Below are positions 994-5,419 of a DNA stretch of 24,000 nt, piece by piece. The stretch covers positions 1-24,000 of the forward strand of contig NZ_FOQE01000011.1 in assembly GCF_900113675.1 (NCBI RefSeq), in the 5' to 3' direction. The first letter of the stretch is position 1, and every line of letters begins with the position of its first letter. Position numbers and translations under genes: made by a program. Under the pieces are notes generated by a model. That model had not been told where the DNA came from. It made no database searches and saw only the letters and a program-made list of their open reading frames with translations. This DNA is from Pisciglobus halotolerans. Its GTDB lineage: Bacteria > Bacillota > Bacilli > Lactobacillales > Carnobacteriaceae.

Positions 994-1881
994 TTGAACA
1001 AACAAAAAATTGCTTTTTTAGTTGATTCAGGTTCAGATGTACCAGAAGAAGTAATCAAAAAATATAATATGCATGTGATCCCCTTGAAAATTATTTTTAA
1101 AGATCAAGAATATATAGATAAAGTCGATATATCTGCTCAAGGAGTTTATGATCGGTTAGATGAAGAAATCCCAAAGACTTCTCTTCCTGATGGTGAAACT
1201 ATAAAAAATATGCTGTTGAAAATAAAGGAAGAAGGCTATGATAAAGTCATCGCTGTGACGATCTCCAGTGGGCTGAGCGGAACCAATAATATGGTACGCT
1301 TAATGTCAGAAGAGGTAGAAGATTTAGATGTCTTTGTCCTAGATACAAAAAATATCGGAATTGGAAGTGGCTTTTTGGCTATTCGTGCTGCTTCTTACAT
1401 TGAAAAAGGTTTTAACTGGGAAGAAATTCAAGAAAAATTGAAAAAAAGTGTCGAAAAGACGAAGGTTTTTTTCCATGTTCCTACGCTTGAATACCTGCAT
1501 AAAGGTGGGAGAATTGGTTTAGTGTCTTCTGTAGTCGGAAACATGTTGAACCTGAAACCTGTTATTTCATGTAATGAAGATGGGATCTATCATACGGTAG
1601 CTAAAGTACGTGGAAATAAAAAGAGTATACAAAAAACGATTGATCTTGCTGTAGCATTTGCAGGCGAAGCAAAAAAATATGATATTGCGTTAGCTTATGG
1701 AGGCAATGAAGCGGAAAAATCAATGAAATCAATACGAGAAGCTATCCAAGATAGATTACCAAAAATCCAACATATCTATGAAGGACCAATTAGTCCTGCT
1801 TTGGGTGTTCACACCGGTCCTGGCTTAATTGGGATTGGCGTTAGCATTCTTGATGACGAAGATGAAAAGAAAAGCGTTTAA
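994..1881 (+). CDS. degV: DegV family fatty-acid-binding protein
   Basis: 295-aa ORF with TTG start and GGAGGAG RBS at 981-987. N-terminal IAFLVDSGSD and overall DegV-like layout (SSGLSGT, LHKGGRIG). Confidence 0.85.
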   Translation: MNKQKIAFLVDSGSDVPEEVIKKYNMHVIPLKIIFKDQEYIDKVDISAQGVYDRLDEEIPKTSLPDGETIKNMLLKIKEEGYDKVIAVTISSGLSGTNNMVRLMSEEVEDLDVFVLDTKNIGIGSGFLAIRAASYIEKGFNWEEIQEKLKKSVEKTKVFFHVPTLEYLHKGGRIGLVSSVVGNMLNLKPVISCNEDGIYHTVAKVRGNKKSIQKTIDLAVAFAGEAKKYDIALAYGGNEAEKSMKSIREAIQDRLPKIQHIYEGPISPALGVHTGPGLIGIGVSILDDEDEKKSV

Positions 1882-1889
1882 TACATTTC

Positions 1890-1990
1890 AATTGTACAAT
1901 GATTAACGCTGATTAGTAAAAAGTCGCTTCTTTTTTATGCAAAAACGGATAGAAATACATTTATTTATCAATGTCAAAAGATGAAGAACC
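1890..1990. mobile_element. MITE-like element, copy D (diverged)
   Basis: 101 bp, non-coding. Left end AATTGTACAATGATTAACG aligns with GGTTCTACAATATTTAACG. Right end CAAAAGATGAAGAACC matches 15/17 to copy A. Flanked by a perfect 8-bp direct duplication TACATTTC (1882-1889 and 1991-1998). Confidence 0.7.
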
Positions 1991-2000
1991 TACATTTCTT

Positions 2001-2032
2001 ATGAGTCGAATTGATTTTCGGCTCATTTTTTT
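2001..2032 (+). terminator. Rho-independent terminator of degV
   Basis: ATGAGTCGAA (2001-2010) pairs with TTCGGCTCAT (2017-2026), 10 bp including one G-U. Followed by a T7 run. Confidence 0.75.
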
Positions 2033-2034
2033 GT

Positions 2035-2171
2035 GGCTCTACAATATTTAACGTTAGTCAGTAAAATATCCATTTTGTTAATGCTAAACCCGTTAGAATC
2101 CTATTTATAGAAATTTCAGTAGCCCATCGATCAGAGGGAATTTCTTTATAAACATTAAAAGAGGAAGAACC
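2035..2171. mobile_element. MITE-like element, copy A (with extra 37-nt internal segment)
   Basis: 137 bp. Left 72 nt are about 86% identical to copy B, and the right 28 nt match 24/28. An extra segment at 2107-2143 is bounded by ATTT. Flanked by a perfect 8-bp direct duplication TTTTTTGT (2027-2034 and 2172-2179). Confidence 0.8.
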
Positions 2172-2267
2172 TTTTTTGTGCGAATAAAGGGATATCTTGA
2201 TCAAACCAAAAAAACAGAATCATTCGGTTCGCAAGAGAGACATGAACTATCTCATGAAGAGAAAATT

Positions 2268-2276
2268 TGCTATAAT
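2268..2276 (+). promoter_or_regulatory. Extended -10 promoter element upstream of recJ
   Basis: TGcTATAAT at 2268-2276. No good -35. It lies 23 nt upstream of the proposed TTG start and before the GGGAG RBS (2286-2290). Confidence 0.4.
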
Positions 2277-2298
2277 AACAGAGTTGGGAGTGAAAAAG

Positions 2299-2581
2299 TT
2301 GATTAAATCTCATAAAGAATGGCATTCGGCCATGGAACAATATGACGAAGAAAAAATAACTCAATTGAGTCAGCAATTACAGTATTCTCCACTTTTTATT
2401 TCTCTTTGTCTGCAAAGAGGACTAGATTCGGAAGAGAAAATTAAGCAATTTGTTTGTCCTGATGATACAAAAACAATAAATGATCCTTTTTTGATGCATG
2501 ATATGCAGAATGCAGTAGAACGAATTCACCAAGCAATCGAAATGGGAGAAAGAGTGACAGTTTACGGAGATTATGACGCGG
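2299..2581 (+). CDS. recJ: Single-stranded-DNA-specific exonuclease RecJ, exon 1 (joined to 3360..5419 after intron removal)
   Basis: In frame with ORF 2197..2625. The proposed start is TTG 2299, 8 nt after GGGAG, because the upstream part of the ORF overlaps the promoter and MITE flank. The N-terminus LIKSHKEW...SPLFISLCLQRGL...NDPFLMHDM...VTVYGDYDA matches RecJ. The reading frame degenerates right after 2581 (GATRSQV...stop). Confidence 0.85.
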
Positions 2582-3276
2582 GTGCGACACGTTCGCAAGT
2601 GAAAAGCTTGCGCACCTCTTTTTAAAAAAATAGGGAGAACTGATCAAGTAAAAGCTGGAATGATGGCGTAACGTCCTGAAACAGCTTCCCTGATCCTCCG
2701 ATATGCGATTGAAAGGTAAAATTCAAACGTATAAAGCTCGGTAAAGTCAGCTGAGAGAAGCCGTAAATAAAGAATACTTCTTTATACGAAAAAGATCTAG
2801 GTCTCGCTTCCTATAGGCTGGGGGTCTCATAAATTATCTAAGGCTAGTATGTTTCTTTGTAGAAACTGACGAATCTTTGAATGTACAGGTCGATAAGTAA
2901 AAGATGCAGAAATGCATGGTTGGGATCGATGAAAAAAGATCCTTTTGCACGTGGCGGAGTAAAATTGCGCGTTATGAAATGCCATATCGTTTCATGGGAG
3001 CGATCAAGTGCAACGGTCTATAGAAGAAGCCTAAGGATATATAGCAGTAGATAACTTGATTGGAACGTGGAAAGCTTGGAATGCAGATATCATTACCGAT
3101 AAATGAAGCAGTTTAGACGAAAAAACCAGTAGGGTACAATAAGCTAATTGATCCAAGTGAAAGTAGAGCCACAGTACCGTTGAAGCTGTGATAATAAACA
3201 GTGGAGGGATAGGCTCGAGTCGAACCTTGATTTTATTCGAGAAATAGCTCATTTAAAAGCAAATAGATTCGATAGA

Positions 3277-3310
3277 ACGCCGTGTGAGATGAAAGTCTCC
3301 TGCACGGTGT
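3277..3310 (+). ncRNA. Group II intron domain V (catalytic hairpin)
   Basis: ACGCCGUGU-GAGAU-GAAA-GUCUC-CU-GCACGGUGU. It has a 9-bp lower helix, a 2-nt 3'-side bulge, a 5-bp upper helix and a GNRA loop. The triad position reads CGC. Confidence 0.9.
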
Positions 3311-3312
3311 GG

Positions 3313-3357
3313 AGCGGGGGAAAATCTGGAGATTATTTCAAAAGATTACCTATCGCT
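3313..3357 (+). ncRNA. Group II intron domain VI with branch-point adenosine
   Basis: AGCGGGGG (3313-3320) pairs with CCU-A-UCGCU (3349-3357), leaving A3352 unpaired 8 nt from the 3' splice site. Inner stem AAUCU (3323-3327) pairs with AGAUU (3343-3347). Confidence 0.8.
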
Positions 3358-3359
3358 AT

Positions 3360-5419
3360 ACGGTGTAACAAGTACAGCTGTCTTAGTGGAGACACTAGAA
3401 ATGATGGGTGCAGACGTCCATTTTTACATTCCTAATCGTTTTACAGACGGTTATGGACCAAATATTGAAGCCTTCAAAAAAATCATTGAAGAAGGAACGA
3501 ATTTAATCGTGACTTGTGATAACGGGGTTTCTGGGCATGACGCCATTCAAGAGGCGACAAAAATGGGTGTAGAAGTTATTGTGACAGATCACCACGAAAT
3601 GCCCGAAGTTTTACCTGAAGCTTATGCTATTGTACATCCTCGTCATCCTGAAGGACAATATCCTTTTGGAGACCTAGCGGGAGTGGGGGTTGCTTTTAAA
3701 CTAGCAACAGCTTTGTTGGGAGAAGCCCCAATCGAATGTATGGATCTCGTTGCAATTGGTACGATTGCTGACCTCGTATCACTAAGAGAAGAAAACCGTG
3801 CTTTAGTGATTCACGGATTAGAAGTGTTAAGGAATACGGAACGTGTTGGTTTGGATGCTTTATATAAATCAGCAGGAGTCAAAAAGAACGAAATAGATGA
3901 AGGGTCTATTGGTTTTGCAGTTGCTCCTAGATTAAATGCTGTAGGTAGGCTGGGAGACGCTTCCCCAGCTGTTCAATTGTTAACCACTTTTGATCAGGCG
4001 AAAGCAGAACAAACAGCTCATCTCATCGAACAAAAAAATCACGACCGAAAAAAATATGTGAAAGAAATAACAGCTGAAGTTTTGGAAATGATCGAAAAAG
4101 GACCAGAAGAACAAGCAGTATATGTTTTAGCTAAGGAAAATTGGCATGAGGGCGTTTTAGGGATCGTAGCTAGTAAAGTAGTAGAAAAAACTGGAAAGCC
4201 GGCAATCATTTTAAACATCGATAAAGAAAAAGGAGTAGCTAAAGGGTCTGGAAGAAGTGTATCATCGCTTCATCTTTATCAAGCTTTAGACTCGATCCGT
4301 TCATTAATGGAAGCTTTTGGCGGACATCACATGGCGGCAGGGCTATCTATTCAACCTGAAAATATTGATCTCTTGCGACAACAGTTAAATGAATATGCTG
4401 CTTCCAATGGAATGGCAGATCAAAGGAAAGAAGAAGTAGAAATAACGGCTTTATTAAAACCAGAAGAATGTACGATTCAAACTGTTGAAGAAATCAAAAA
4501 ACTGGCTCCATTTGGAACGGATAATCCTTTTCCAAACTTTCTAATACAAGATGCAACAGTAAATGAAATAAGACAAATAGGTGCAGACCGAACGCATCTT
4601 AAGATGACACTGCAATATGGCGATAAGACATTAGACACCATTGGTTTTGGTTTTGGAAATTATGGAGAATGGATCAACCAAAATACAACCTTGTCTCTTA
4701 TAGGACAATTGACGATCAACGAGTGGAGAGGCGTTAAAAAGGTTCAAATAAGGTTGGAAGATCTGAAAGTTGAAGAGTTGCAGTATTTTGATTTCAGGGG
4801 AGGACACGTTCCAGACAACATTTGGAAACTATCGCACACTGGATATTTATTTTTTGATCCAACTATTGCTCAACAATTGGCTTTTAAAATTTCTTCAGAA
4901 AACAATATGTATCTTGTTGAGAAAAATAGTGATGTCGAAACCTTGCCAATAAATGAATTTGAACGTTTCGTATTGGTCGATTGTCCGCCAACGTTGGACC
5001 TTCTTCAACAAACATTGCAGAAAATCAATGCAAATAATATTCTCTATATTTTTCATTCGCAAAAAAATGCCTATTTAGAAGGAATACCCAGCAGAGAACA
5101 ATTTGCAACAGTCTATAAATTCTTGGCTTCTCATCGTAATATCGATGTACGTAATCAGCTGAAGTTACTGGCAAAAACATTAAAAGTGAAAGAAAAGCGT
5201 TTAATTTTTATTATTTCGGTGTTTTTTGAAGTGGGATTTGTTAAAATAGAAGACGGCATCTTAAACTATCGAAAGGATGCACCAAAAACAGATTTAACAA
5301 CATCACATACTTATCAAAAAAGACAGCTGCAGATCGAAACAGAAGAAGCACTGCTATTTAGTCATTCCTCTGATGTAGAAGGCTGGTTAGATCATCAGAT
5401 GAATGGTATGGAAAATTGA
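3360..5419 (+). CDS. recJ: Single-stranded-DNA-specific exonuclease RecJ, exon 2
   Basis: AC (3360-3361) completes the split Asp codon G|AC. GGT GTA ACA... then continues in the frame of ORF 3386..5419. DHH/DHHA1 motifs are present (YIPNRFTDGYGPN, VTCDNG, VTDHH, GGHHMAAG). Combined length is 780 aa. Confidence 0.9.

What the first reader, a model, noticed from the sequence alone, without database searches (positions are those of the whole stretch)
3200..3276. The intron has no intron-encoded protein and only a stub where domain IV should be
Only about 70 nt separate the D3-like GGGUAC...GUACC region from domain V. These contain short hairpins (CTCGA...TCGAG around 3214-3241) rather than an ORF. 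The six-frame track shows no plus-strand ORF of 60 aa or more anywhere in 2626-3385. The only ORFs are on the wrong strand (2441..2647 and 3031..3252) and show no reverse-transcriptase or maturase character. Splicing of an essential-pathway gene must therefore be autonomous or depend on a maturase supplied in trans from another locus. That implies a cross-locus dependency and predicts full-length relatives of this ribozyme elsewhere in the genome.
Basis: inference. Interest (0 to 1): 0.6.

Follow-up and report, generated by a model that had tools for sequence, protein, structure and literature searches.

The report
Protein-less self-splicing intron in recJ
The recJ DNA-repair gene of this lactic-acid bacterium is split by a group II intron that has lost its helper-protein gene, and no such helper gene was found anywhere in the genome assembly, so the intron most likely splices without its usual protein partner, which is rare in bacteria.

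Summary
The 778-nt group II intron (2582-3359) that splits recJ has a domain IV of only 55 nt (3219-3273). It carries no reverse-transcriptase/maturase ORF and no detectable remnant of one.

The same intron sits at the identical recJ codon in two other genera of the family (Carnobacteriaceae-like). Two genomes keep a 2775-nt version whose domain IV holds a 636-aa RT/endonuclease gene; in one of them the gene is already broken. All eight genomes of a sister genus have ORF-less versions with domain IV of 30-155 nt.

The ribozyme is 78-80% conserved while neighbouring synonymous sites are saturated. Its helices covary, and recJ exon 1 is under purifying selection. The intron is therefore functional and inherited vertically.

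The window's genome (99.99% complete, 88 contigs) has no RT of any kind. Seven of the eight sister genomes have no group II RT either.

The only relative in this genome is a second ORF-less intron, inside the single tRNA-Arg(CCU) gene.

The best reading is maturase-independent splicing, like C.te.I1 of Clostridium tetani. It is a new member of a rare known kind. The scan has not reported this element on other DNA.

The parts
2197..2581 (+). recJ exon 1. The ORF is open from 2197 and the true start codon was not determined. It ends with the first base of the Asp codon of the DHH motif ...VYGDYDA|D.
   Evidence: ORF list. tblastn shows exon 1 conserved in 10 related genomes. dN/dS is 0.08-0.33.
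2573..2580 (+). IBS1 (AUGACGCG), the last exon-1 bases that pair with EBS1.
   Evidence: Eight contiguous pairs with 2968-2975. The pairing covaries with the exon sequence in introns sitting in other host genes.
2582..3359 (+). ORF-less group II intron, 778 nt, running from GUGCG to ...CUAU.
   Evidence: Rfam RF02004 and RF00029. Identical insertion site in 10 orthologues. 125 consensus base pairs, 74 with compensatory changes.
2635..2832 (+). Domain I core (match to Rfam group-II-D1D4-5).
   Evidence: 146.3 bits, E=8.6e-33.
2968..2975 (+). EBS1 (CGCGUUAU), lying in the loop closed by helix 2951-2956 / 2980-2985.
   Evidence: The closing helix covaries, and the loop sequence changes with the 5' exon across recJ, the L055 host gene and tRNA-Arg.
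3166..3216 (+). Distal part of domain III, closed by helix GAGCC / GGCUC.
   Evidence: Covarying pairs at alignment columns 671-675 / 717-721. Also present in the minimum-energy fold.
3219..3273 (+). Domain IV stub, 55 nt: basal stem GUCGAA (3219-3224) / UUCGAU (3268-3273) around a 43-nt A/U-rich interior.
   Evidence: The basal stem covaries (GUCGUUUU/AAAACGAU in the sister genus). Domain IV is 2036 nt in the protein-coding orthologues.
3277..3310 (+). Domain V, the catalytic hairpin, with CGC triad at 3278-3280 and a GAAA tetraloop.
   Evidence: RF00029. Compensatory pairs. Single-sequence fold.
3313..3357 (+). Domain VI, with bulged branch-point A3352 seven nucleotides before the 3' splice site.
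   Evidence: RF00029 alignment. Consensus structure leaves alignment column 983 unpaired in all 15 introns.
3360..5419 (+). recJ exon 2 (AC GGT GTA ... to the stop codon).
   Evidence: ORF 3386-5419 is in the same frame. About 71% amino-acid identity to orthologues over the first 200 residues. Homologues are RecJ proteins.

Best explanation
The recJ intron is an immobilised, vertically inherited group II intron. An ancestral version carried a roughly 630-aa RT/maturase/HNH-endonuclease gene in domain IV. In this lineage a deletion of about 2 kb removed the whole ORF and left a 55-nt stem-loop (3219-3273) that only closes the domain.

The ribozyme is intact. It has:
- GUGCG at the 5' end;
- EBS1 at 2968-2975, pairing with the last exon-1 bases at 2573-2580;
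- domain V with a CGC triad;
- domain VI with branch-point A3352.

No reverse transcriptase or maturase gene was found in the genome assembly. Splicing of recJ pre-mRNA is therefore most likely maturase-independent. It would be ribozyme self-splicing by the branching (lariat) pathway, perhaps helped by general host RNA chaperones or helicases.

Shown here: the anatomy, the orthology, the loss of the ORF, purifying selection on the ribozyme and on both exons, and the absence of RT genes. Inferred: that splicing happens in vivo, that it needs no dedicated protein, and that it uses the lariat pathway.
For: Anatomy: Rfam hits and intron boundaries. Consensus structure with 74 of 125 pairs showing compensatory changes, including the domain IV basal stem, domain V and domain VI. 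The single-sequence fold recovers the same domains, z = -3.9.

ORF loss: orthologous introns at the identical recJ codon are 2775 nt with a 636-aa RVT_1 protein in two genomes. One of those proteins is broken by a TAA stop. The introns are 767-896 nt and ORF-less in all eight genomes of a sister genus.

Function retained: the ribozyme is 78-80% identical across genera where exon third-codon positions are about 40% identical. Pairwise intron and exon identities correlate at r=0.97. Exon 1 has dN/dS of 0.08-0.33.

No maturase:
- The window's genome has no match to RVT_1, GIIM, Intron_maturas2 or TIGR04416, and no tblastn match to cognate proteins.
- Six sister genomes with the ORF-less intron, in 2-30 contigs, have no RT at all. 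A seventh has only a DRT2 defence RT.

EBS1-IBS1 pairing changes with the host gene.

Precedent: C.te.I1 of C. tetani is ORF-less, sits in a genome with no intron-protein gene, and self-splices robustly in vitro (PMC4424553).
Against: No transcript or biochemical data exist, so splicing in vivo is inferred from sequence conservation only.

The window's genome is a draft of 88 contigs. A plasmid or a collapsed repeat carrying an RT could be missing.

Most bacterial group II introns studied need their maturase at physiological Mg2+ (general knowledge). A dedicated but unrecognised host factor therefore cannot be excluded.

One sister genome (G002) does carry group II RTs of another type.

Position -1 of the exon (G2581) faces G2967 in the proposed EBS1 pairing.
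Confidence: 0.68

Rival explanations
1. Trans-acting maturase. A related, protein-coding group II intron elsewhere in the cell supplies the maturase but is missing from the draft assembly. This is how the Trichodesmium RIR-intron protein serves the ORF-less dnaN introns.
For: The assembly has 88 contigs, and multi-copy mobile introns often break assemblies. Trans-maturase systems are the usual situation for bacterial ORF-less introns (PMC4424553; PMC12584367).
Against: No RT fragment was found on any contig, even the small ones. Marker-gene completeness is 99.99%. The same ORF-less intron lives in six sister genomes with no RT at all. Three of these are assembled into 2, 4 and 6 contigs. G004 has only its own broken intron protein.
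Confidence: 0.1
2. Dedicated host splicing factor. A chromosomal protein unrelated to RTs has taken over the maturase role for both the recJ and the tRNA-Arg introns, as nuclear-encoded factors do for organellar introns.
For: Two ORF-less introns of one structural family coexist in an RT-free genome. The ORF was lost at least twice independently without loss of the intron. Organellar precedent is described in PMC4424553.
Against: No candidate gene was identified, and nothing was tested here that points to one. C.te.I1 shows that a bacterial ORF-less intron can self-splice robustly without protein.
Confidence: 0.17
3. The intron is not spliced. recJ is then a pseudogene, or only a truncated exon-2 protein is made.
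For: Public annotations call only the exon-2 ORF, giving 693-699-aa 'RecJ' proteins in several Carnobacterium species.
Against: Exon 1 stays open, in frame up to the splice site, and under purifying selection in all 11 genomes. The DHH motif is completed only by exon joining. The ribozyme is more conserved than the coding exons, while the interior of domain IV is free to vary.
Confidence: 0.03

Closest known systems
[quoted passage not shown]
   Same: It is a bacterial (Firmicutes) group II intron without an ORF, lying inside a protein-coding gene, in a genome with no intron-protein-related gene. It is presumed to be maturase-independent. The 2015 review called it the only such case among more than 1,500 bacterial copies.
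   Different: C.te.I1 has a shifted 5' splice site, four alternative 3' splice sites and an altered IBS1-EBS1. It lies in a surface-layer protein gene. The recJ intron has canonical GUGCG and AU ends and a single domain V/VI. It sits in a conserved DNA-repair gene and has orthologues across genera, some of which still carry the protein gene. Self-splicing has not been tested for it.
ORF-less dnaN introns of Trichodesmium erythraeum and the ORF-less TeI3-type introns of Thermosynechococcus elongatus
   Same: [quoted passage not shown] In Trichodesmium the host gene is a DNA-metabolism housekeeping gene (PMC12584367; PMC2882425).
   Different: Those introns are spliced with a maturase from a related full-length intron in the same genome. 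Here that defining companion was searched for and not found.
ORF-less group II introns of plant and algal organelles
   Same: They are splicing-only elements fixed in core genes, including tRNA genes. They are inherited vertically after loss of the intron protein (PMC4424553).
   Different: Organellar introns often have degenerate ribozymes and depend on many nuclear-encoded factors. Here the ribozyme is intact, the host is a free-living bacterium, and no helper is known.
Full-length orthologues in recJ of related species (G009, probably Carnobacterium sp. TMP28, and G004)
   Same: They share the insertion site and a ribozyme about 79% identical to this one, with the same domain IV basal stem GUCGAA.../...UUCGAU.
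   Different: Their domain IV is 2036 nt and encodes a 636-aa RT/maturase, intact in G009 and interrupted by a TAA stop in G004.

Membership tests
Group II intron (ribozyme) | 5' GUGYG and 3' AY boundaries that restore the host reading frame when the intron is removed | tested here: met
   GUGCG at 2582-2586 and ...CUAU ending at 3359. Exon joining gives GDYDADGVTS.
Group II intron (ribozyme) | Domain V catalytic hairpin and domain VI with a bulged branch-point A | tested here: met
   RF00029 at 59.6 bits against a gathering score of 40. Covarying domain V and VI pairs, with bulged A3352 seven nucleotides from the 3' end.
Group II intron (ribozyme) | Domain I with exon-binding site complementary to the 5' exon | tested here: met
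   RF02004 at 146 bits. EBS1 2968-2975 pairs with IBS1 2573-2580 over 8 bp. The loop changes with the exon in introns from other host genes.
Group II intron (ribozyme) | Self-splicing or lariat-forming activity | not testable with these tools
   This needs RT-PCR and in vitro splicing assays.
Mobile group II intron retroelement | RT/maturase ORF in domain IV | tested here: not met
   Domain IV is 55 nt. There is no ORF of 60 aa or more, no Pfam hit and no tblastn remnant.
ORF-less intron served by a trans maturase (Trichodesmium / T. elongatus type) | A related protein-coding intron, or a free-standing maturase, in the same genome | tested here: not met
   No RVT_1, GIIM, Intron_maturas2, TIGR04416 or cognate-protein match in the 2.44-Mb assembly. 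The draft status of the assembly is a caveat.
Independent ORF-less bacterial intron (C.te.I1 type) | No intron-protein-related gene in the host genome | tested here: met
   Same searches as in the previous row. The result is reproduced in 7 of 8 sister genomes that carry the orthologous ORF-less intron.
Independent ORF-less bacterial intron (C.te.I1 type) | Robust protein-free self-splicing | not testable with these tools
   Only indirect evidence is available: ribozyme and exons are under purifying selection.
Group IIC introns | Small ribozyme of about 400 nt, inserted after a terminator hairpin, with a short EBS1 | tested here: not met
   The CGC triad is shared with IIC, but the ribozyme is about 720 nt, lies inside a codon of a conserved motif, and has an 8-9 bp EBS1. 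The cognate protein carries an HNH domain in one relative. The structural class was not otherwise assigned.

The most novel reading that the evidence does not exclude
This family of lactic-acid bacteria carries an organelle-like set of domesticated group II introns.
- They are fixed in core genes: recJ and the only tRNA-Arg(CCU) gene here, with relatives in polC and dnaE of other Lactobacillales.
- They have been inherited vertically through genus-level divergence.
- They have lost the intron protein at least twice independently.
- They are spliced in cells that contain no group II maturase at all.

If so, they are either unusually robust in vivo self-splicers or clients of an undiscovered bacterial splicing factor. 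The tRNA-Arg(CCU) intron would also be the first group II intron described in a bacterial tRNA gene.
Probability: 0.45. Interest if true: 0.75.

Novelty: new member of a known kind. Interest (0 to 1): 0.6.

Why it matters
[quoted passage not shown] This case has the following features:
- two ORF-less introns in functional genes of a genome with no detectable RT;
- evidence that the recJ intron has co-diverged with its host across genera;
- the protein gene caught at three stages in orthologues: intact, broken and deleted.

That gives a natural bacterial series for the retroelement-to-splicing-only transition, which is otherwise studied in organelles. It also yields candidate ribozymes that may splice efficiently without protein.

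On the practical side, public annotations of RecJ in several Carnobacterium species are N-terminally truncated because the intron goes unrecognised.

Tried and rejected
- Exact-sequence look-up of the exon-2 protein to name the organism found nothing on record.
- Simon et al. 2008 (PMC2525955), the survey of bacterial ORF-less introns, is not held.
- tblastn of three cognate intron proteins against all ORF-less recJ introns, looking for ORF remnants, gave only noise with E>0.7.
- The weak TIGR04416 hit in the window's genome (C30, E=0.011) was considered as a possible free-standing maturase. It is an RpiR/SIS regulator.
- The weak GIIM and Intron_maturas2 hits (E=0.63 and 0.12) are far below the cut-offs.
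- A group IIC assignment, suggested by the CGC triad, was rejected on size, insertion site and EBS1 length.
- ARAGORN in intron mode also reported 'introns' in tRNA-Gly, tRNA-Cys and tRNA-SeC. These are chimeras across tRNA clusters and were ignored.
- The terminator-like hit at 2594-2612 is a conserved, covarying domain I hairpin, not a terminator.
- Literature searches found nothing on group II introns in Carnobacterium, in recJ, or in bacterial tRNA genes. The held supplements of the 2022 census also have no entry.
- The structural or protein-based class (for example bacterial class B) could not be assigned with the tools at hand.

Full report
**Observation**

The window holds a bona fide group II intron at 2582-3359. 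Rfam finds domain I (RF02004, 2635-2832, 146 bits) and domains V/VI (RF00029, 3275-3359, 59.6 bits). The intron starts GTGCG and ends CTAT. Removing it joins ...VYGDYDA to DGVTSTAVL..., which is the DHH motif of RecJ.

An alignment of 15 related ORF-less introns gives a consensus structure of 125 pairs, 74 of them with compensatory changes. A single-sequence fold of 3160-3359 recovers the same elements, with z = -3.9 and none of 200 shuffles folding as well:
- domain III closing helix, 3166-3170 / 3212-3216;
- domain IV, 3219-3273;
- domain V, 3277-3310, with CGC triad at 3278-3280;
- domain VI, 3313-3357, with bulged A3352.

Domain IV is therefore 55 nt. It consists of a 6-bp basal stem, GUCGAA/UUCGAU, around 43 A/U-rich nucleotides.

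No plus-strand ORF of 60 aa or more overlaps the intron. The small ORFs on either strand hit no Pfam family at E<=10. Cognate intron proteins find no remnant by tblastn.

It uses the 3' strand of the covarying domain III helix and the base of domain IV, and it has no counterpart in the relatives.

**What was lost**

RecJ homologues place the organism in a Carnobacteriaceae-like family. The closest are Desemzia at 59% and Carnobacterium at 53-54%.

RF02004 searches of related genomes found the same intron at the identical recJ codon in three places:
- all eight genomes of one sister genus (g3), at 767-896 nt and ORF-less;
- two of nine genomes of another genus (g5), at 2775 nt;
- the window's own genome.

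In the 2775-nt version, domain IV is 2036 nt and encodes a 636-aa protein with an RVT_1 domain. Its PDB relatives are group II intron RTs. A relative of the protein in dnaE of another genus also carries an HNH domain.

In G004 this ORF is already interrupted by a TAA stop after 91 codons.

The alignment runs cleanly through domains I-III up to window position about 3224 and resumes at about 3268. The window's intron keeps roughly 20 nt of the 5' flank of domain IV and 30 nt of its 3' flank. It has lost everything between them, including the start and stop codons of the ORF. The domain IV basal stem covaries: GUCGAA/UUCGAU here and in g5, GUCGUUUU/AAAACGAU in g3.

**Is the intron still functional?**

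The ribozyme part is 78-80% identical between this genome and the g3 and g5 orthologues. Third-codon positions in the adjacent, best-conserved part of recJ are only about 40% identical, which is saturation. The interior of domain IV cannot be aligned at all.

Pairwise intron identity tracks pairwise exon identity with r=0.97. This fits vertical co-inheritance rather than recent transfer. Both matrices place this genome outside the g3 and g5 genera. The protein gene was therefore lost at least twice independently, once here and once in g3, with a third loss under way in G004.

Exon 1 is open and in frame to the splice site in all 11 genomes, with dN/dS of 0.08-0.33. The metal-binding DHH motif exists only after exon joining. 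This argues that splicing occurs.

An exon-binding site can be named. CGCGUUAU (2968-2975) lies in the loop closed by the covarying helix 2951-2956 / 2980-2985, and it pairs with AUGACGCG (2573-2580). The homologous loop in relatives matches their own 5' exons:
- CAUCUGUAU for an exon ending GUACAGAUG (L055);
- CUG(A)CGUUAU for AUGAUGCAG (g3 recJ);
- GGGAAA for UUUCCU (tRNA-Arg).

**Test of the trans-maturase prediction**

The window's genome is 2.44 Mb in 88 contigs, with 99.99% marker completeness.
- It gave no candidate at all for RVT_1.
- It gave nothing significant for GIIM, Intron_maturas2 or TIGR04416.
- tblastn with three cognate proteins gave no hit better than E=0.88.
- The one weak TIGR04416 hit is an RpiR/SIS regulator.

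The result is reproduced in the sister genus. Six of the eight g3 genomes with the ORF-less recJ intron have no RT of any kind, including assemblies of 2, 4 and 6 contigs. A seventh has only a DRT2 defence RT. One (G002) has group II RTs of another type.

**The relative that does exist in this genome**

A second match to both Rfam models lies on contig 61. It is an 806-nt ORF-less intron (GUACG...CAGUAU) inside a tRNA-Arg(CCU) gene, directly 3' of the anticodon (ARAGORN in intron mode).

It is only 53% identical to the recJ intron, so it is an old paralogue and not a recent copy. It is the only tRNA-Arg(CCU) gene in the genome.

The same interrupted tRNA gene occurs in all three genomes of another genus of the family, with introns of 812-820 nt that are about 78% identical to this one.

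**Wider context**

In a sample of 151 genomes of the order, 23 carry an RF02004-type intron. Each has exactly one copy, except this genome, which has two.

Other members sit in catalytic motifs of polC (ORF-less, in an assembly with no RT hit that is only 85% complete) and of dnaE (full length).

**Mechanism proposed**

The recJ transcript folds into a complete ribozyme. EBS1 holds the 5' exon. The 2'-OH of A3352 attacks the 5' splice site, and the freed exon attacks the 3' splice site after U3359. The 55-nt domain IV serves only as a connector.

Because no maturase gene was found, folding must be intrinsic or assisted by general host factors. This step is inferred.

**Comparison and novelty**

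Zimmerly and Semper (PMC4424553) make three statements:
- bacterial ORF-less introns nearly always coexist with related intron proteins;
- C.te.I1 of C. tetani is the sole exception among more than 1,500 copies;

A 2025 paper still cites only a few housekeeping-gene cases, with Trichodesmium dnaN as the trans-maturase model (PMC12584367). A 2022 census counted 888 ORF-less introns among 13,041 (PMC8919778). ORF-lessness alone is therefore not new.

I found no paper on group II introns in Carnobacterium, in recJ, or in a bacterial tRNA gene.

I file the recJ intron as a new member of the C.te.I1-like kind. It is notable for its canonical structure, its housekeeping host gene, its long vertical persistence, and the preserved series of ORF decay.

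**Caveats**

- There are no expression data.
- The assembly is a draft.
- The intron class is unassigned.

Noticed in passing
G000 contig 61: tRNA gene 37973-38854, intron 38011-38816 (L005:1439-2244): The genome's only tRNA-Arg(CCU) gene is split directly after the anticodon by an 806-nt ORF-less group II intron of the same Rfam type. The same interrupted gene occurs in all three genomes of another genus of the family (L057-L059). I found no published group II intron in a bacterial tRNA gene. By its name (Arg.5Ug, bioRxiv 10.1101/2020.01.27.920355), the classical group I intron of tRNA-Arg(CCU) appears to sit at the same loop position; I did not check this.
   Followed up: partly
L054:1582-2325 (G037, polC) and L056, about 1780-4486 (G033, dnaE): Relatives of this intron interrupt catalytic motifs of the replicative polymerases in other Lactobacillales. 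One is an ORF-less copy of about 744 nt in polC (PDIDL|NFSGEYQ), in an assembly with no RT hit that is only 85% complete. The other is a full-length copy with a 632-aa RT/HNH protein in dnaE (MDFLG|LRNLS).
   Followed up: partly
Proteins P0011-P0018, P0022, P0032 and P0040: Public RecJ entries for several Carnobacterium species (C. inhibens, C. pleistocenium, sp. TMP28 and MAGs) are 693-699 aa rather than about 775 aa. The likely reason is that annotation pipelines call only exon 2 and miss the intron.
   Followed up: partly
L052:3059-5833 (G004 recJ intron): This is a full-length orthologue whose intron protein is interrupted by a TAA stop after 91 codons and ends 25 codons early. It is the only RT-like sequence in that genome, so it represents an intermediate stage of ORF decay.
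   Followed up: partly
Order-level survey: RF02004-type introns occur in 23 of 151 sampled Lactobacillales genomes. Each has a single copy, except this genome with two. That is unlike proliferating retroelements.
   Followed up: no
window 2594-2612: The consensus scan flags this as a terminator-like hairpin. It is a conserved, covarying hairpin near the 5' end of domain I (CGCAAG/CUUGCG here, CAUAAG/CUUGUG and UGUAAG/CUUACA in relatives), not a terminator.
   Followed up: yes
L053 (G014 contig 1, 64 kb): This is the best-scoring RF02004 intron (184 bits), full length with a 630-aa protein. It sits next to a resolvase-like gene on a 64-kb contig, possibly a plasmid, so a still-mobile member of the family may exist.
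   Followed up: no
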